A stretch of 21,943 nt of DNA from Minisyncoccota bacterium. GTDB taxonomy: Bacteria > Patescibacteriota > Minisyncoccia > Phycocordibacterales > Zambryskibacteraceae. Both the position numbers and the translations under genes were made by a program. This document shows positions 4,339-21,230 of this stretch, one piece after another. The stretch covers positions 1 through 21,943 of the forward strand of contig JAGVCW010000022.1 in assembly GCA_020059045.1 (NCBI GenBank), read 5' to 3'. Under the pieces are notes generated by a model, which had not been told where the DNA came from, did not search any database, and saw only the letters and a program-made list of their open reading frames with translations. The first letter of the stretch is position 1; every line of letters starts with the position of its first letter.

Positions 4339-4411
4339 TAAAGTAATTGTAATTTAGAATACTTTAAAATATTGCTTCTTACAATTAGCTTATGACCTTG
4401 CATTTCTTAAC

Positions 4412-4443
4412 AAAAGACCCCGCCTAGGCGGGGTCTTTTGTTA
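4412..4443. terminator. bidirectional Rho-independent terminator
   Basis: AAAA-GACCCCGCC-tag-GGCGGGGTC-TTTTGTT is a 9-bp GC-rich stem flanked by an A-run and a T-run. It ends the minus-strand pilin operon. Confidence 0.8.
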
Positions 4444-4492
4444 ATCATCATTCGTTATTCCTTATTCTCTATTCTTTATATCTTATTCTTCT
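4444..4492 (-). repeat. heptad-periodic purine tract, (NNN)GAAT repeated about 5 times on the minus strand, between the stop codon and the terminator; repeat family copy 1
   Basis: On the plus strand, ATTC occurs at 4450, 4457, 4464 and 4471 with period 7, and again at 4485. The reverse complement, GAAGAATAAGATATAAAGAATAGAGAATAAGGA, matches 14291-14323 at 30 of 33 positions. Confidence 0.6.
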
Positions 4493-4759
4493 TCAAAACG
4501 GAAATCTACCTGAAATATTTACACCGATTGTGTCCATAACAATCCTTATGATTCCGTAGACTCCGAACATTATAAACATTCCAATAACACCCCATAGCAT
4601 GTTTTTCTGACCTTGCTCTCGGTTCTTAGCATCTTCTGTATTAGTAAGGAATTGGAATATCCCCCACAGAAATACTAGGAGTGCTATCGCAAACATAAGG
4701 AGAATGAGTGGGTTTAAGATAAACTGATTTATCTTACCCAAAAACGGAGCAATGGACAT
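4493..4759 (-). CDS. TrbC/VirB2-like pilin-family small membrane protein, paralog 6, lacking the signal peptide and ectodomain
   Basis: Two TM helices separated by a charged loop (FLWGIFQFLTNTEDAKNREQGQKNMLWGVIGMFIMFGVYGII) match the family core of the upstream paralogs. It lies 15 nt after paralog 5. Confidence 0.5.
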   Translation of the reverse strand: MSIAPFLGKINQFILNPLILLMFAIALLVFLWGIFQFLTNTEDAKNREQGQKNMLWGVIGMFIMFGVYGIIRIVMDTIGVNISGRFPF

Positions 4760-4774
4760 GAGAAATGACTACCT

Positions 4775-5122
4775 CTATATTGCTGGGGGCTGGATTATTC
4801 CGCCACCACCCGTACCTGTTTCTGTCTGAAGAAGCTGAACGATCCCCCATACTGAAACCATAATGAATATTGCAACTATTCCCCAAATCATGATTTTCTT
4901 TCCTTCTTCTCTTTTGTCTTCATTTCCTGCGGCAAGAACAAATTTCATTAAACCCCATAGGAAAAACAGGAATGCGAGGCCGATGACGACTGGTGTTGCC
5001 ATATTGATAAGACCCCTGATCTGACTGATAACGCTCTGGGTATAGTTAAAAGTTGGATTCCCTACAGCAAGCACAATTGCTGGAAGTAGGAAACTGGCGC
5101 CAAGAGCAATAAACTTTTTCAT
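4775..5122 (-). CDS. TrbC/VirB2-like pilin-family protein with signal peptide, short ectodomain and TM hairpin; paralog 5
   Basis: Signal peptide MKKFIALGASFLLPAIVLAVG. Core PVVIGLAFLFFLWGLMKFVLAAGNEDKREEGKKIMIWGIVAIFIMVSVWGIV. Gly-rich C-terminal tail. Own minus-strand promoter at 5180-5208. Confidence 0.65.
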   Translation of the reverse strand: MKKFIALGASFLLPAIVLAVGNPTFNYTQSVISQIRGLINMATPVVIGLAFLFFLWGLMKFVLAAGNEDKREEGKKIMIWGIVAIFIMVSVWGIVQLLQTETGTGGGGIIQPPAI

Positions 5123-5179
5123 TGTTTGATAAAATTAAATAATAAAATACGTTTTAGTTATACCTAGTGGTATAGGCTT

Positions 5180-5208
5180 ATAATACAAGGATTTAATGCA
5201 AAATTCAA
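5180..5208 (-). promoter_or_regulatory. internal sigma70-type promoter, TTGAAT-17-TATTAT on the minus strand, inside the pilin array
   Basis: Reverse complement of 5203-5208 is TTGAAT, and of 5180-5185 is TATTAT, with a 17-nt spacer. Located in the 117-nt gap between paralogs 4 and 5. Confidence 0.5.
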
Positions 5209-5239
5209 GGGAAGTGTGGATAAAAAAGTGAAAGACAGA

Positions 5240-5557
5240 TTACGGTCCAATGATATAAGTGCTAAGCCCAAACTCAAATCTAAGTAACCAGACTATCCCC
5301 CAAACAGATACCATTATAAAAAGTGCTATAACACCCCAAGTCATTAACCTCTTTCCTTCTGTTCTTTTCTCTTCGTTACCTGAATTTAAGATAAAGTTTG
5401 CTAGCCCCCATAGGAAAAATAAGAAGGCGAGGCCGATGACGACTGGAAAAGCTAAGTTTAATACATTTCTGAATTCTGTGATTACTCCCTGTATACCTTG
5501 AGCCGCAACAAAAACGGGTAGAAAGGATGTGAGAATTAGAAAAAATCTATAGATCAT
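5240..5557 (-). CDS. TrbC/VirB2-like pilin-family protein, paralog 4
   Basis: Signal peptide MIYRFFLILTSFLPVFVAAQG. Core PVVIGLAFLFFLWGLANFILNSGNEEKRTEGKRLMTWGVIALFIMVSVWGIV is near-identical to paralog 5. A roughly 45-nt stretch (about 5404-5447) is about 85-90% identical to the corresponding stretch of paralog 5 (about 4949-4992). Confidence 0.65.
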   Translation of the reverse strand: MIYRFFLILTSFLPVFVAAQGIQGVITEFRNVLNLAFPVVIGLAFLFFLWGLANFILNSGNEEKRTEGKRLMTWGVIALFIMVSVWGIVWLLRFEFGLSTYIIGP

Positions 5558-5562
5558 TTAAG

Positions 5563-6024
5563 TTATGAAGTTCGAAGAAATGGAAACGCCAAATTACCCC
5601 CAAAAAAATCACTAAAAAGAATACTTACAATTCCCCAAACTGATACCATTACAAAGAGTCCTATCGCCCCCCAGAACATAAGACTCTTGCCCGCACTTAC
5701 TTTCTTCTCATCTCCTGCTGCCAAAACAAATCTCATAAGTCCCCAGAGAAAGACGAAAAACGCTAATCCTATGACAACTGGTATAAGTGAATTAATTAGA
5801 CCCACGAGTAAGCAAACAAATTCTGTGAAGTTACCAGGTTGCGTGCCTGGAGCAGTATTCCCATATGAGGGACACACTGAAGAAGAGGCCGGAGATGGAG
5901 AAGTGTTAACGGGGATAGGAAAACCGGCAAAAGCTTGCACGGGTAGAGATAGAATAATAATTAATATTACAAAGCAAGCTACGTAACTCCTCACCAAATT
6001 TATTTTGAATCTACTCGTATACAT
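5563..6024 (-). CDS. TrbC/VirB2-like pilin-family protein with an extended Pro/Ser-rich ectodomain carrying a Cys pair; paralog 3
   Basis: Signal peptide, then SPSPASSSVCPSYGNTAPGTQPGNFTEFVC with two Cys, then core PVVIGLAFFVFLWGLMRFVLAAGDEKKVSAGKSLMFWGAIGLFVMVSVWGIV. AAGGA ribosome-binding site. Lies 5 nt from paralog 4. Confidence 0.65.
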   Translation of the reverse strand: MYTSRFKINLVRSYVACFVILIIILSLPVQAFAGFPIPVNTSPSPASSSVCPSYGNTAPGTQPGNFTEFVCLLVGLINSLIPVVIGLAFFVFLWGLMRFVLAAGDEKKVSAGKSLMFWGAIGLFVMVSVWGIVSILFSDFFGGNLAFPFLRTS

Positions 6025-6027
6025 ATT

Positions 6028-6420
6028 TTATGGTCCTTGAAGTTGGTTCACTGTTGCTTGTATAGCCAAAGCTATTGCCCATGAGCCTAGAAGTATAAGG
6101 GCTCCAATGACTGAGGAGAAAAACGCACTTTTCGCACTCTTAAGTTTAGTTTCATCTCCACGTGCAGTAACAAACAGAAACCCTGCATAAATAATAGCAA
6201 GTGTAACTATTACCCCTCCAATAGGAAGTATCACGTCATTAATAACAGCAACTATGAAGTCGTAGAGTGTACCAGGAGCATTTCGGAGAGGATTGGGAAT
6301 ACAGACACTACCTTGAGGACATGGCGCGGATCCACCTGTATTACCCGCAAACACAATTCCTGGAATATAAACTACCAAGATAATGAGAAGAGAGAGAAGC
6401 ATTGTAAAAAGTTTTTTCAT
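6028..6420 (-). CDS. TrbC/VirB2-like pilin-family protein, the more classical VirB2-like variant with a Cys pair; paralog 2
   Basis: Signal peptide MKKLFTMLLSLLIILVVYIPGIVFAG. The ectodomain holds CPQGSVC. TM hairpin: IVTLAIIYAGFLFVTARGDETKLKSAKSAFFSSVIGALILLGSWAIALAI. Lies 3 nt from paralog 3. Confidence 0.6.
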   Translation of the reverse strand: MKKLFTMLLSLLIILVVYIPGIVFAGNTGGSAPCPQGSVCIPNPLRNAPGTLYDFIVAVINDVILPIGGVIVTLAIIYAGFLFVTARGDETKLKSAKSAFFSSVIGALILLGSWAIALAIQATVNQLQGP

Positions 6421-14284: not shown

Positions 14285-14330
14285 AACGAGGAAGAATAAG
14301 GAATAAAGAATAGAGAATGAGGAGGAAATA
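14285..14330 (+). repeat. heptad-periodic purine tract, (NNN)GAAT repeated 4 times, immediately after the rpsA stop; repeat family copy 2
   Basis: GAAT at 14294, 14301, 14308 and 14315. GAAGAATAAGGAATAAAGAATAGAGAATGAGGA matches the reverse complement of 4444-4492 at 30 of 33 positions. Confidence 0.6.
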
Positions 14331-14350
14331 CAGTTGTAGGGAGGCGGAAC

Positions 14351-14385
14351 AAAAATTCTTCTGAAAGTCAGAAGAATTTTTGTTT
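14351..14385 (+). terminator. Rho-independent terminator for rpsA
   Basis: AATTCTTCTGA-aag-TCAGAAGAATT is a perfect 11-bp stem followed by TTTGTTT. Confidence 0.8.
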
Positions 14386-19343: not shown

Positions 19344-19586
19344 ATGATAAATATTGAAGTCGAAAAGAACCAGAACGAAAATAGCCTATCCTTGCTTCGC
19401 CGATTTACCAAAAGAGTGCAAGGAGCGGGTATTTTGCCACGGGTACGCTCTATCAGATACTCCAGCAGAACTATTTCTGAAGCGGTAAAACGTAAGAAAA
19501 CCCTTAAGCTCCTAAGGAAACGTGAGGAGGTAGCAAAGCAAGTAAAATTGGGCAAAATTGTAGAAAATGTCCGACGCAGAAGATAA
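19344..19586 (+). CDS. rpsU: 30S ribosomal protein S21
   Basis: An 80-aa, highly basic protein. LLRRFTKRVQGAGIL resembles the S21 LRRFKR...G.L motif, with a Lys/Arg-rich C-terminus. Confidence 0.7.
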   Translation: MINIEVEKNQNENSLSLLRRFTKRVQGAGILPRVRSIRYSSRTISEAVKRKKTLKLLRKREEVAKQVKLGKIVENVRRRR

Positions 19587-19965
19587 ATATAACCTAAGCA
19601 TTCGCAATCTTACAAAAGGCAAGGCTCTCCCCTTGCCTTTTGTAAAGATTAAGCAAGCAATACTTGGCAATAAGTATGATTTGTCTATTGTCTTGTGTGG
19701 GGATGCTCTATCACACAGACTTAATCGAATATACAGAGGGAAGGACAAACCCACAAATGTACTATCATTCCCTCTTTCAAAACAAAAGGGAGAAATTTTT
19801 TTAAACTTGCCGCTATTAAAGCGGGAAGCACGTACAAACGATTTAAGCTTCATGATTTATACTTCACGAATGCTTATCCACGGTCTACTTCATTTGAAAG
19901 GAATGGAACATGGCGCTACAATGGAGCAAGCAGAGCAGAAGTTTTTCATTAAGTTTAATATTTGA
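19567..19965 (+). CDS. ybeY: rRNA maturation endoribonuclease YbeY
   Basis: YRGKDKPTNVLSFP and the metal-binding motif HGLLHLKGMEHG (H-x3-H-x5-H). Its start overlaps the rpsU 3' end by 20 nt. Confidence 0.8.
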   Translation: MSDAEDKYNLSIRNLTKGKALPLPFVKIKQAILGNKYDLSIVLCGDALSHRLNRIYRGKDKPTNVLSFPLSKQKGEIFLNLPLLKREARTNDLSFMIYTSRMLIHGLLHLKGMEHGATMEQAEQKFFIKFNI

Positions 19966-19975
19966 AAAACTTTCG

Positions 19976-20038
19976 CGAATGAGGAATAAGGAATGATGAG
20001 TTAAGAGAATTATTCGTCATTCGATTTTCGTCATTCGC
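19976..20038 (+). repeat. heptad purine tract, (NNN)GAAT repeated 3 times, plus an inverted-repeat hairpin after the ybeY stop; repeat family copy 3
   Basis: GAATGAGGAATAAGGAATGATGA matches GAATAAGGAATAACGAATGATGA in copy 1 at 21 of 23 positions. Flanked by GCGAATGA (19975-19982) and TCATTCGC (20031-20038), an 8-bp inverted repeat, with an extra inner TCATTCG copy. Confidence 0.55.
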
Positions 20039-20048
20039 CATTTCATTT

Positions 20049-21230
20049 ATGAGTCGAAACATCACCACAGGAATAGATATAGGAACATACCAGATTAAGG
20101 TTGTTATTGCTGAACGGACGAGCGAAGACGGCTCACACCCCAGAATCCTCGGTACAGGTTTCACTGAATCTAAGGGCCTTAGACATGGATATATAGTAAA
20201 TGTAGGTGAAGTAACAAAGACACTACGGGTAGCACTCTCACAAGCAGAGAAAGCAGCAGGCATAAAAATTAGGCAATCCTATGTATCAGTGGGTGGTGTG
20301 GGTCTTGCAAGTATAGTATCAACTGGCACCGTTATGATTACGCGTGCTGACTCTGAAATATCCGAACTTGATATAAAGAAAGCTATGGAAATTGCAGAGG
20401 AAGAAATCCCAAAAGCCCTTTCTCAGAATCGCAAAATAATATATGCAATCCCGGTTAAATATAAGGTTGACGGCAAGGAAGTAATGGGTAACCACCCACT
20501 TGGTATGCGTGGACTGAAACTTGAAGCAAGGGTTTTGTTCATAACATGCCTTGAGCATCATCTGAAAGATCTTGTGGAAGCTGTGGAGGAGGCAGGTGTA
20601 GATGTAATAGATATAGTGGCCTCACCGGTCGCAGCAAGTTTCGTGACTCTCACCAAGGCTCAAAGAATAGCTGGGTGTGTGCTTGCAAATATAGGTTCAG
20701 AAACTGTTTCTATTGTGGTGTTTGAGGATAGTAACCCGATATCACTTGAGGTTTTCCCCATTGGTTCCACAGACATTACTCATGACATAGCACTTGGTTT
20801 GAGGGTGCCGCTTGAGGAAGCGGAAAGTATAAAGCTTGGTGGTATAACACAGACCAATTATCCTAAAAAGAAACTAGACGAGATAATAAACGCGAGACTA
20901 TCAGACATGTTTGAGCTTATTGAGGCTCACCTGAAGAAAATTGGAAGGAATGGTCTTCTTCCTGCTGGTATTGTTATCACCGGAGGAGGATCAAGTATTT
21001 CTATGCTCGAGGATTTCGCGAAACTTTCGCTCAAACTTCCATCGCGAATTGCGCATATCAATTTTCCAGAAAAGGAGAAAGGTAAGTTCAGAGATGCGTT
21101 CTTTGCTACTGCACTTGGTCTCTGTATTATCGGTTTCAACGAAGGTGAAATAGGAGGTAAAATTGTAATGAAATCTTCAATAAATATTTTGAGAACTGTA
21201 AAGGATTGGTTCAGACCTTTCTTGCCATAA
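20049..21230 (+). CDS. ftsA: cell division protein FtsA
   Basis: N-terminal actin-fold phosphate-1 motif TGIDIGTYQIKVVIAE. A C-terminal amphipathic membrane-targeting helix (ILRTVKDWFRPFL). Lies upstream of ftsZ. Confidence 0.85.
   Translation: MSRNITTGIDIGTYQIKVVIAERTSEDGSHPRILGTGFTESKGLRHGYIVNVGEVTKTLRVALSQAEKAAGIKIRQSYVSVGGVGLASIVSTGTVMITRADSEISELDIKKAMEIAEEEIPKALSQNRKIIYAIPVKYKVDGKEVMGNHPLGMRGLKLEARVLFITCLEHHLKDLVEAVEEAGVDVIDIVASPVAASFVTLTKAQRIAGCVLANIGSETVSIVVFEDSNPISLEVFPIGSTDITHDIALGLRVPLEEAESIKLGGITQTNYPKKKLDEIINARLSDMFELIEAHLKKIGRNGLLPAGIVITGGGSSISMLEDFAKLSLKLPSRIAHINFPEKEKGKFRDAFFATALGLCIIGFNEGEIGGKIVMKSSINILRTVKDWFRPFLP

What the first reader, a model, noticed from the sequence alone, without database searches (positions are those of the whole stretch)
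19966..20048. Repeat family copy 3 carries 8-bp terminal inverted repeats and fills the ybeY-ftsA gap
After the ybeY stop, a tract with three heptad GAAT units (19976-20000) is bracketed by GCGAATGA (19975-19982) and TCATTCGC (20031-20038), with an extra TCATTCG at 20016-20022. The 23-mer GAATGAGGAATAAGGAATGATGA matches copy 1 at 21 of 23 positions. Terminal inverted repeats around a roughly 60-nt element resemble a miniature inverted-repeat element. Alternatively this is an attenuator-type hairpin regulating read-through from rpsU-ybeY into ftsA, whose ATG lies 10 nt downstream.
Basis: seen in the sequence. Interest (0 to 1): 0.55.

Follow-up and report, generated by a model that had tools for sequence, protein, structure and literature searches.

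The report
Hairpin built from seven-base repeats
The gap between the ybeY and ftsA genes of this small candidate-phyla-radiation bacterium holds two opposed runs of a 7-base repeat that fold into one long hairpin; this is a local example of a widespread, known but still unexplained kind of bacterial intergenic repeat, not a jumping element.

Summary
The sequence is as described, apart from one coordinate that is off by one base. The "terminal inverted repeats" are not transposon ends. They are the outer units of two convergent, imperfect heptanucleotide arrays: (GAATRRR)3 at 19977-19999 and (ATTCGYC-like)4 at 20012-20042. Together they fold into one dominant 64-nt hairpin (19975-20038, -29.6 kcal/mol), starting 9 nt after the ybeY stop and ending 10 nt before the ftsA ATG. 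Copies 1 and 2 are single GAAT arrays lying between a stop codon and a canonical terminator.

Period-7 arrays dominate the intergenic tandem repeats in 80 related Paceibacteria loci. They sit close to gene ends and often occur as inverted pairs. GAAT arrays in metagenomes had a convergent partner in 24 cases and a divergent one in none.

This matches the heptameric intergenic repeats published for Xanthomonas (GGGAATC), cyanobacteria and Beggiatoaceae, whose function is unknown.

- A MITE reading is not supported: there is no target duplication and no second full copy.
- A two-state attenuator is not supported.
- A leaky terminator or intercistronic stem-loop is the best functional guess, because the hairpin has terminator polarity and persists in all 7 members of a sister clade.
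- The nearest relatives lack it, so it is not essential.

Verdict: a new member of a known kind, of modest interest.

The parts
19975..20038 (+). The whole imperfect hairpin that fills the ybeY-ftsA spacer: an 8-bp outer stem, a 3-bp middle stem, a 4x4 internal loop, an 11-bp inner stem and a 10-nt loop.
   Evidence: RNA fold gives -29.6 kcal/mol, z -3.8, reached by 0/200 shuffles. The same structure appears in a longer context. Outer-stem probability is 0.99. As DNA the fold is -14.9 kcal/mol.
19977..19999 (+). The 5' arm: a purine-rich heptad array, GAATGAG GAATAAG GAATGAT GA.
   Evidence: GAAT occurs at period 7 three times. It matches copy 1 at 21/23.
20012..20042 (+). The 3' arm: an inverted, pyrimidine-rich heptad array, ATTCGTC ATTCGAT TTTCGTC ATTCGCC ATTTCAT. 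It contains an exact 11-nt direct repeat, TTCGTCATTCG, at 20013-20023 and 20027-20037.
   Evidence: TRF calls period 7, 4.4 copies, consensus ATTCGTC. The exact repeat is shown. The arm is unique in the window.
19963..19965 (+). The ybeY stop codon (TGA), 9 nt before the base of the hairpin.
   Evidence: Relatives stop at the homologous position with TAA, so TGA is a stop codon here.
20049..20051 (+). The ftsA start codon, 10 nt after the base of the hairpin. No Shine-Dalgarno motif precedes it.
   Evidence: The region 20039-20060 is mostly unpaired (probability about 0.7).
19938..19973 (+). A neighbouring 11-bp hairpin whose 3' arm contains the ybeY stop codon. It is separated from the heptad hairpin by one base.
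4445..4494 (-). Copy 1: a single GAAT heptad array of about 7 units. It starts 2 nt after the TGA of a T4SS-pilin-like ORF and stays unpaired in the fold.
4407..4444 (-). A canonical terminator directly after copy 1: a perfect 19+19-nt palindrome with an A-tract and a U-tract.
   Evidence: (I12).
14288..14323 (+). Copy 2: a single GAAT heptad array of 4 exact units. It starts a few nt after the TAG of the S1 protein gene and stays unpaired in the fold.
14350..14382 (+). A terminator-like hairpin downstream of copy 2.

Best explanation
What it is. The element is a convergent pair of short, imperfect heptanucleotide simple-sequence-repeat arrays: (GAATRRR)n followed by its inverse (YYYATTC)n. 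It belongs to the same kind of intergenic heptamer repeat described in Xanthomonas, cyanobacteria and Beggiatoaceae. It is not a transposable element.

Likely origin (inferred). Such arrays probably grow by 7-nt slipped-strand duplication, and paired arrays then persist around intergenic centres.

What is shown. No promoter is recognisable inside the spacer, so the pair is most likely transcribed with ybeY and ftsA (the co-transcription itself is inferred). In that RNA it would fold into one stable 64-nt stem-loop. The stem-loop has a purine-rich 5' arm and a U/C-rich 3' arm, followed by CCAUUUCAUUU.

Likely function (inferred). The stem-loop acts as a leaky, terminator-polarity intercistronic hairpin. 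It would lower or buffer read-through from rpsU-ybeY into ftsA-ftsZ and protect the upstream message from 3' exonucleases. It covers positions -18 to -11 of the ftsA leader, and a ribosome terminating on the ybeY stop 9 nt upstream would open the basal stem. That would give mild translational coupling. It is not a two-state switch.
For: Identity as heptad arrays:
- TRF finds period-7 arrays at all three copies and at the inverted arm.
- In 80 related loci, intergenic tandem repeats are dominated by periods 7, 14 and 21 (119 of about 259 arrays). Coding repeats are dominated by periods 6, 9 and 12.
- Exact GAAT heptad arrays lie 0-23 nt after a stop codon in sense orientation (13 cases), or as ATTC 0-57 nt before a start codon (12 cases).
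- 43 of 119 period-7 arrays have an inverted partner within 160 nt, against 8-13 in the controls.
- The published Xanthomonas repeats have the same anatomy: heterogeneous (GGGANTN)n, mostly 4 units, about 90% intergenic, close to the ORF end, on the coding strand when downstream and the non-coding strand when upstream, with 70-75 convergent pairs (PMC4692102).

Structure:
-.

Terminator polarity:
- Of 99 metagenomic GAAT arrays, 24 have a convergent ATTC partner and 0 a divergent one.
- In Paceibacteria pairs, the left arm is purine-rich 29 times against 13.
- 8 of 13 sense GAAT arrays are followed by a canonical terminator hairpin.

Persistence at this junction:
- All 7 loci of a sister clade (79-88% FtsA identity to each other) carry a GAAT...ATTC hairpin between ybeY and ftsA, with fold z-scores of -2.5 to -11.4.
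- L007 and L010, in the window's own clade, carry one too.
- The median z of ybeY-ftsA spacers is -2.5, against -1.6 for all co-directional spacers.

Co-transcription:
- No promoter-like site lies in the spacer.
Against: - There are no expression data of any kind.
- The hairpin lacks a canonical U-run, and the simple terminator rule does not call it.
- The nearest relatives (FtsA 76-79% identical: L001, L002, L201, L202) have shorter spacers with no array and little structure. Any function is therefore dispensable.
- Boundary-spanning hairpins are only modestly commoner in real co-directional spacers than in shuffles (33% against 24%).
- The start codon and the last 10 nt of the leader are not sequestered, so any translational effect would be small.
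- The 24:0 polarity could have another cause.
Confidence: 0.5

Rival explanations
1. A neutral by-product. The arrays are slippage-prone heptanucleotide microsatellites that accumulate where intergenic DNA tolerates them. The hairpin is an accident of two arrays lying head to head and does nothing that is selected.
For: - The nearest relatives lack the arrays both at ybeY-ftsA and after the S1 gene.
- Orthologous positions in other genomes carry arrays of unrelated units: TAGCTNN, AGCGTTT, TAGGCNC, AGAAGTT.
- Unit number and order differ between orthologous arrays.
- Mismatches are not significantly concentrated in particular columns (p about 0.06).
- The literature attributes the excess of heptamers to polymerase slippage.
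Against: - Neutral accumulation predicts no orientation rule. Yet GAAT lies on the sense strand after stop codons (13 arrays, against one ATTC-sense array within about 20 nt of a stop, by my reading of the table). Convergent pairs outnumber divergent pairs 24:0.
- The element is present in 7 of 7 members of a clade spanning 79-88% FtsA identity.
Confidence: 0.3
2. Protein-binding heptads. The repeated GAAT/AUUC units are tandem binding sites for a single-strand nucleic-acid binder, such as ribosomal protein S1 or a cold-shock protein that covers about 7 nt. The U/C-rich array before ftsA would then act as an SD-independent translation enhancer, masked by the purine arm.
For: - Shine-Dalgarno motifs are not enriched upstream of genes in this clade.
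- ftsA leaders are pyrimidine-rich across the clade: 60% against 50% for all genes, p 4e-8, not corrected for phylogeny.
- The same proposal was made for the TAACTGA repeats (PMC4679880).
Against: - Within single genomes, different spacers carry unrelated heptad units, which does not fit one sequence-specific binder.
- An RNA binder would not explain why the complementary GAAU arrays sit in 3' UTRs.
- Nothing was tested directly.
Confidence: 0.1
3. A miniature inverted-repeat transposable element (MITE), or REP- or Correia-like mobile palindrome, inserted between ybeY and ftsA.
For: - It has inverted ends and is about 64 nt long.
- Related arrays occur at three sites in 22 kb.
- The nearest relatives have shorter spacers.
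- Copies 1 and 2 share the order of four unit variants (p about 0.05).
Against: - There is no target-site duplication.
- There is no second copy of the 3' arm or the loop.
- Copies 1 and 2 are half elements without a partner.
- The arms are internally tandem-repetitive and vary by whole units between orthologues, which is microsatellite behaviour.
- No transposase or RAYT-like gene was noted among the ORFs examined, but only 10 ORFs were scanned.
Confidence: 0.05
4. A riboswitch-like or leader-peptide attenuator that toggles between two structures, using the duplicated TCATTCG.
For: - Two possible 3' partners exist for the 5' arm.
- Two mini-ORFs lie in the 5' arm, at 19979-19996 and 19993-20004.
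Against: - The alternative pairing is 11.8 kcal/mol less stable, and the minimum-free-energy and centroid structures coincide.
- In the predicted fold both TCATTCG copies are used at once, in nested stems.
- No Rfam family matches, even at E up to 10.
- The sequence is not conserved in relatives.
Confidence: 0.03

Closest known systems
Xanthomonas GGGAATC / (GGGANTN)n heptameric intergenic repeats, and Nostoc GGGGA(C/T)T repeats (Rehm et al. 2015, PMC4692102)
   Same: - The unit is 7 nt, with a shared GAAT core.
- The units are heterogeneous, and an array typically has about 4 of them.
- About 90% are intergenic and lie close to the neighbouring ORF end.
- The purine strand is the coding strand when downstream of a gene and the non-coding strand when upstream.
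- Many occur as convergent inverted pairs able to form stem-loops.
- Length and sequence vary between relatives, and the function is unknown.
   Different: - The host here is an AT-rich CPR bacterium.
- The G3 tract is replaced by mixed purines (AAG, GAG, AGA), so the G-quadruplex rationale given for those repeats cannot apply.
- The copy number per genome is unknown, because only 22 kb of the genome is available.
TAACTGA heptamer direct repeats of marine Beggiatoaceae, some cyanobacteria and Bacteroidetes (MacGregor 2015, PMC4679880)
   Same: - Short intergenic heptamer arrays of 2-6 units, within a few nt of start codons.
- The host genomes make little use of Shine-Dalgarno sites.
- Stop codons fall in all three frames in one orientation.
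- S1, Csp or CsrA binding has been proposed.
   Different: - One fixed unit, almost always direct: 169 direct sets against a single inverted one.
- Mostly upstream of start codons in the forward orientation.
- Here the unit is degenerate, pairs are common, and arrays also follow stop codons.
Cyanobacterial STRR heptanucleotides and the long simple sequence repeats of Mrazek et al. 2007 (as cited)
   Same: Heptanucleotide units are the commonest class of longer tandem repeat in prokaryotes and are mainly intergenic. Polymerase slippage has been proposed as their origin.
   Different: Those arrays are often long and perfect. Here they are 3-7 units long and imperfect.
Bidirectional intrinsic terminators and intercistronic stabilising stem-loops such as REP in malE-malF (from my own knowledge)
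   Same: - A hairpin with an A/purine-rich 5' flank and a U-rich 3' flank, placed between cistrons.
- The exclusive purine-arm-first polarity is the polarity a terminator needs.
   Different: - There is no uninterrupted U-run.
- The stem is long and poor in G-C pairs, with an internal loop.
- The window's real terminators are short G+C-rich stems followed by T5-7.
MITEs, Correia elements and REP/BIME
   Same: Small, intergenic and palindromic; co-transcribed with flanking genes and able to fold in RNA.
   Different: - No target duplication and no conserved full-length copies.
- The arms are made of tandem 7-nt units that vary by whole units.
Haemophilus influenzae hmw1A/hmw2A ATCTTTC heptanucleotide repeats, which cause phase variation (PMC8262952, PMC12721329; titles and abstracts only)
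   Same: A heptanucleotide SSR lying between promoter and gene, whose effect runs through 5'-UTR structure and RNase III processing.
   Different: Those are long perfect arrays upstream of a surface adhesin. Here the arrays are short and imperfect, and lie before a housekeeping cell-division gene.

Membership tests
Heptameric intergenic simple sequence repeats (Xanthomonas GGGAATC type) | Tandem unit of 7 nt | tested here: met
   TRF finds period 7 at 4450-4488, 14292-14318 and 20012-42. Exact GAAT occurs at 7-nt spacing.
Heptameric intergenic simple sequence repeats (Xanthomonas GGGAATC type) | Short heterogeneous arrays (about 2-26 units, mode 4) with a conserved core and variable positions | tested here: met
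   The arrays have 3-7 units, with a GAAT core and RRR spacers. Clustering of mismatches in particular columns is only marginal across the clade (p about 0.06).
Heptameric intergenic simple sequence repeats (Xanthomonas GGGAATC type) | Intergenic and close to an ORF end: coding strand when downstream, non-coding strand when upstream | tested here: met
   13 arrays lie 0-23 nt after a stop in sense orientation, and 12 lie as ATTC before a start. All three window copies follow a stop codon within about 10 nt.
Heptameric intergenic simple sequence repeats (Xanthomonas GGGAATC type) | Frequent convergent inverted pairs | tested here: met
   Window 19977-99 paired with 20012-42. 43 of 119 arrays have a partner. 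Convergent against divergent is 24:0.
Heptameric intergenic simple sequence repeats (Xanthomonas GGGAATC type) | G3-4 tract per unit, giving G-quadruplex potential | tested here: not met
   The units are GAATGAG, GAATAAG, GAATAAA and GAATAGA, with at most GG. This sets the window's arrays apart from the G4 subclass but not from heptamer SSRs in general.
MITE | Terminal inverted repeats | tested here: inconclusive
   An 8-bp inverted repeat is present. It arises from two opposed tandem arrays, and an 8-bp inverted repeat occurs in 11.5% of shuffles.
MITE | Target-site duplication flanking the element | tested here: not met
   The flanks are CTTTC|GCGAATGA...TCATTCGC|CATTTC. There is no adjacent direct repeat.
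MITE | Multiple full-length, near-identical copies in the genome | tested here: not met
   The 3' arm and loop are unique in the 22-kb window. Copies 1 and 2 are single arrays. The rest of the genome was not available.
MITE | Empty site in relatives that aligns across the insertion point | tested here: inconclusive
   The nearest relatives have 47-67-nt spacers without the element, but the spacers cannot be aligned.
Intrinsic (Rho-independent) terminator | Stable stem-loop | tested here: met
   -29.6 kcal/mol, with a basal 8-bp stem containing 4 G-C pairs.
Intrinsic (Rho-independent) terminator | U-run immediately 3' of the stem | tested here: not met
   The tail is CCAUUUCAUUU. The inner stem is followed by GAUUUUC. 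The consensus scan does not call it, although it calls the window's other terminators.
Intrinsic (Rho-independent) terminator | RNA 3' ends or a drop in read-through at the site | not testable with these tools
   There are no transcript data.
Known structured RNA family (Rfam) | Covariance-model match | tested here: not met
   There is no match at gathering score in the window. At E up to 10 there are only chance eukaryotic hits, well below their gathering scores.

The most novel reading that the evidence does not exclude
Paired heptad arrays may be a sequence-agnostic but polarity-constrained cis-module that flanks terminators and gene junctions across very distant bacteria. It would run from 36%-GC to 70%-GC genomes, and include CPR bacteria as well as the Xanthomonas repeats. 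It would be made or read by a conserved machine, such as RNA polymerase or the termination apparatus, RNase III, or a process that adds sequence in 7-nt steps. It would also be independent of G-quadruplex formation. The ybeY-ftsA copy would then be a tunable valve on cell-division gene expression, with its strength set by the number of units.
Probability: 0.12. Interest if true: 0.7.

Novelty: new member of a known kind. Interest (0 to 1): 0.35.

Why it matters
Heptanucleotide intergenic repeats have been noted in bacteria since about 1990, and again in 2007 and 2015, without a function. This locus adds three things.
- They are abundant in the streamlined genomes of CPR/Patescibacteria, where every intergenic base is at a premium.
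- The AT-rich CPR version keeps the GAAT core, the closeness to gene ends and the convergent pairing, but has no G-tracts. The G-quadruplex idea therefore cannot be the common explanation.
- Pairs obey a strict purine-arm-first polarity (24:0). That is what a terminator-like RNA hairpin would need, and a purely neutral microsatellite model does not predict it.

If the hairpin does throttle read-through into ftsA-ftsZ, changes in unit number would be a simple way to retune cell-division gene dosage. For annotation, the practical lesson is not to call such structures MITEs.

Tried and rejected
- Three-frame stop-codon arrays. Every window unit contains TAA, TAG or TGA, and a period of 7 cycles through the reading frames. 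Across 119 arrays, however, the share with no stop (18%) equals that of random intergenic segments (22%), and there is no sense/antisense asymmetry (33% against 31%). Rejected as a selected feature.
- UGA recoding or C-terminal extension. Relatives stop at the homologous codon with TAA. Rejected.
- Conserved core with variable spacer as a sign of selection. This was only marginal (z 1.8, 32 of 500 null draws).
- Copies as dispersed mobile copies. The unit-resampling null gives p 0.05 and 0.36.
- General 'stop-to-start' spanning hairpins in all co-directional spacers. These are barely above shuffles.
- Consensus structure and covariation across the seven clade-T spacers. The alignment was too poor and the consensus energy only -1.2 kcal/mol. 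Uninformative.
- Rfam at gathering score and at permissive thresholds: nothing. No tRNA or tmRNA.
- Looking up the window's own FtsA by exact sequence to find more of the genome: not on record. The window is the whole 21.9-kb contig.
The copy number in this genome therefore remains unknown.
- A 2026 paper on terminators in metagenomes has nothing on Patescibacteria or heptamers.

Full report
**Setting.** The window is an entire 21.9-kb contig. Its best FtsA relatives are Candidatus Zambryskibacteria, Paceibacteria and other Parcubacteria MAGs. It is about 40% G+C and carries a CPR-typical T4SS-pilin-like gene (PF18895). ORF 19567-19965 is YbeY and ORF 20049-21230 is FtsA. The 80-aa ORF just upstream looks like ribosomal protein S21 by eye but has no Pfam hit.

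**Checking the observation.**
One slip: the extra TCATTCG is at 20017-20023, not 20016-20022.
- The 23-mer matches copy 1 at 21/23, and no shuffle of the window gives such a match.
TRF reports 20012-20042 as 4.4 copies of ATTCGTC, which is the reverse complement of a GAAT heptad. TTCGTCATTCG occurs twice exactly, 14 nt apart.
- The '8-bp terminal inverted repeats' are therefore the outermost units of two tandem arrays that point at each other.
- An 8-bp inverted repeat on its own is weak evidence, since 11.5% of shuffled spacers contain one. The complete hairpin is not chance: 19975-20038, -29.6 kcal/mol, z -3.8, reached by 0 of 200 shuffles. It is the same in a 151-nt context.

**The other copies.**
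- Copy 1 (4445-4494, minus strand) begins 2 nt after the TGA of the pilin-like ORF.
- Copy 2 (14288-14323) begins a few nt after the TAG of the S1 gene.
- Both are single purine-rich GAAT arrays that stay unpaired in the predicted fold. Each is followed by a strong canonical terminator.
- Copies 1 and 2 are 89% identical over 36 nt. When units are resampled from the pooled arrays, that similarity has p about 0.05, and the similarity of copies 1 and 3 has p 0.36. The 'family' is thus a shared unit type rather than demonstrable copies of one mobile sequence.

**Relatives.**
- I fetched 80 loci around FtsA homologues, plus the two nearest relatives by exact protein look-up.
- ybeY-ftsA adjacency holds in 67 loci. 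The spacer runs from 0 to 281 nt and is not conserved in sequence.
- The four nearest relatives (FtsA 76-79% identical) have 47-67-nt spacers with no array and little structure. In L202 the S1 gene runs straight from its stop codon into its terminator.
- The arrays are therefore extra sequence specific to this lineage, not a fixed leader.
- Even so, GAAT...ATTC inverted arrays sit at the same junction in L007 and L010 in the window's own clade. They also sit there in all seven members of a sister clade whose FtsA proteins are 79-88% identical to each other. Unit numbers, spacer triplets and central loops all differ. Each of the seven folds into a strong hairpin, with z from -2.5 to -11.4.

**A clade-wide pattern.**
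- TRF on all 1.18 Mb shows intergenic tandem repeats dominated by period 7 (79 arrays), period 14 (33) and period 21 (7), out of about 259. Coding repeats are dominated by periods 6, 9 and 12.
- The units differ among genomes and among spacers within one genome: CTAAACG, AGCTAAA, GATTAAG, TCTCTAA and GAATNNN, among others.
- Downstream of the orthologous S1 gene, about ten genomes carry a heptad array between stop codon and terminator, each with a different unit.
- Exact GAAT arrays of at least 3 units number 24-31. Nearly all lie close to a gene boundary: GAAT on the sense strand 0-23 nt after a stop (13), or ATTC on the sense strand shortly before a start (12).
- 43 of 119 period-7 arrays have an inverted partner within 160 nt, against 8-13 in the reversed or complemented controls.

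**Beyond the clade.**
- Of the 99 arrays with enough flank, 24 have an ATTC array within 150 nt downstream and none has one upstream.
- A convergent pair and a divergent pair would both form hairpins. This 24:0 asymmetry is therefore not explained by hairpin potential alone, nor by neutral slippage.
- It does mean that any transcript crossing the element meets the purine-rich arm first and the U/C-rich arm last, which is the polarity of an intrinsic and indeed bidirectional terminator. Consistent with this, 8 of 13 sense GAAT arrays in the Paceibacteria set are followed by a canonical terminator hairpin.
- Among pairs of all unit types, the left arm is purine-rich 29 times against 13.

**Literature.** This anatomy is already described, though not for CPR bacteria.
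- Rehm et al. (PMC4692102) found about 186 GGGAATC/(GGGANTN)n arrays per Xanthomonas genome. They are mostly four units long and about 90% intergenic. They lie on average 28 nt from the upstream ORF, on the coding strand when downstream and the non-coding strand when upstream. 70-75 of them form convergent inverted pairs. Length varies between species and no function was identified. The authors favoured G-quadruplexes.
- MacGregor (PMC4679880) described TAACTGA heptamers next to start codons in Beggiatoaceae and proposed S1, Csp or CsrA binding.
- Both papers cite Mrazek et al. 2007 for heptamers being the commonest longer SSR in prokaryotes, and for polymerase slippage as their source.
- The window's arrays share the GAAT core and every positional feature but have no G3 tract, so G-quadruplexes cannot be the common denominator.

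**Mechanism at this locus.**
- Shown: one dominant structure, with outer-stem probability 0.99. The alternative pairing that uses the first TCATTCG is 11.8 kcal/mol worse. Positions -10 to +12 around the ATG are mostly unpaired.
- Shown: no promoter-like site lies in the spacer, and there is no U-run like those of the window's real terminators.
- Shown: a second 11-bp hairpin (19938-19973) contains the ybeY stop codon and abuts the heptad hairpin.
- Inferred: the spacer is transcribed with ybeY and ftsA. The hairpin acts as a leaky terminator or an exonuclease barrier. A ribosome terminating 9 nt upstream would open the basal stem that covers -18 to -11 of the ftsA leader.
- I put about 0.5 on this combined reading and about 0.3 on the hairpin being a tolerated by-product of microsatellite dynamics. 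Protein binding, MITE and two-state attenuator readings take the small remainder.

**Ideas that failed.**
- Selection for stop codons in three frames.
- UGA recoding.
- Significant core-against-spacer constraint.
- A general excess of stop-to-start spanning hairpins.
- An alignment-based consensus structure.
- Any Rfam family.

**Verdict.** The MITE label is wrong. The hairpin is real but is not a switch. The element is a new, AT-rich, G4-free member of the known class of heptameric intergenic repeats. It sits at a junction where such hairpins recur in this group of bacteria. Interest is modest for the locus itself. The strict pair polarity and the abundance of these arrays in streamlined CPR genomes are worth a dedicated genome-wide study.

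Noticed in passing
window 19938-19973: An 11-bp hairpin (GAAGUUUUUCA ... UGAAAAACUUU) whose 3' arm contains the ybeY stop codon. It lies one base before the heptad hairpin, so the two could stack.
   Followed up: partly
window 19894-19922: A promoter-like site, TTGAAA-17-TACAAT (10/12), inside the 3' end of ybeY. It coincides with the conserved HLKG...(S/T)ME coding motif, so the same TTGAAA...TA(C/G)AAT spacing recurs in most relatives. It could be an internal promoter for ftsA-ftsZ, which would put the hairpin in a 5' UTR. The scan as a whole was not above chance (4 sites found against 3.1 expected).
   Followed up: no
80 loci L001-L080 and the window: Shine-Dalgarno motifs are not enriched in the 40 nt upstream of start codons, whereas TATA and TAAT are. 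Several ftsA genes have TGTTATATAAT only 7-12 nt before the ATG (L032, L044, L075, L079). This suggests leaderless or very short-leader mRNAs in this clade.
   Followed up: partly
ftsA leaders, 61 loci (last 30 nt before the ATG): The ftsA leader is pyrimidine-rich across the clade: mean 60% against 50% for all genes, Mann-Whitney p 4e-8, not corrected for phylogeny. The window's ATTC array is 73% pyrimidine.
   Followed up: partly
3' of the S1 gene in L009, L010, L019, L020, L042, L043, L046, L066 and window 14285-14325: At the same orthologous position, between the S1 stop codon and its terminator, different genomes carry period-7 arrays of unrelated units (TCGAAAN, TTAGCTT, AGAAGTT, TAGCTNN, TAGGCNC, AGCGTTT, GAATNNN). 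This points to independent origin or rapid turnover with the period kept.
   Followed up: partly
metagenome loci L084, L097, L103, L123, L147, L148, L167, L172, L182, L186: High-GC (65-70%) contigs carry GAATGGG/GAATAGG arrays, a 20-45-nt centre that is often G+C-rich, and then CCCATTC arrays. This is the same architecture as in the window. The host organisms were not identified.
   Followed up: no
window 19979-19996 and 19993-20004: Two mini-ORFs lie inside the 5' arm: ATG AGG AAT AAG GAA TGA, and ATG ATG AGT TAA. They arise from the GAATGA units, and no ribosome-binding signal is visible.
   Followed up: no
window 4493-6420, minus strand: A run of small paralogous ORFs (88-153 aa) that share direct-repeat families D1-D4. 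The first of them hits PF18895 (T4SS pilin), so this is a tandem family of pilin-like genes.
   Followed up: no
window 19344-19586: An 80-aa ORF overlapping the ybeY start by 20 nt. It resembles ribosomal protein S21 by eye (…LLRRFTKRVQGAGIL…) but gives no Pfam hit at E 0.001. The same 80-aa gene precedes ybeY in L201 and L202.
   Followed up: partly
L053 4523-4570; compare L073 3238-3256: In L053 an ATTC heptad array lies inside the N-terminal coding region of a thioredoxin-reductase-like gene (MTEKSKFDIQNSIFDLCIIGGGPAG). In L073 the orthologous gene starts right after a GAAT array. Heptad arrays can therefore be absorbed into ORF starts.
   Followed up: no
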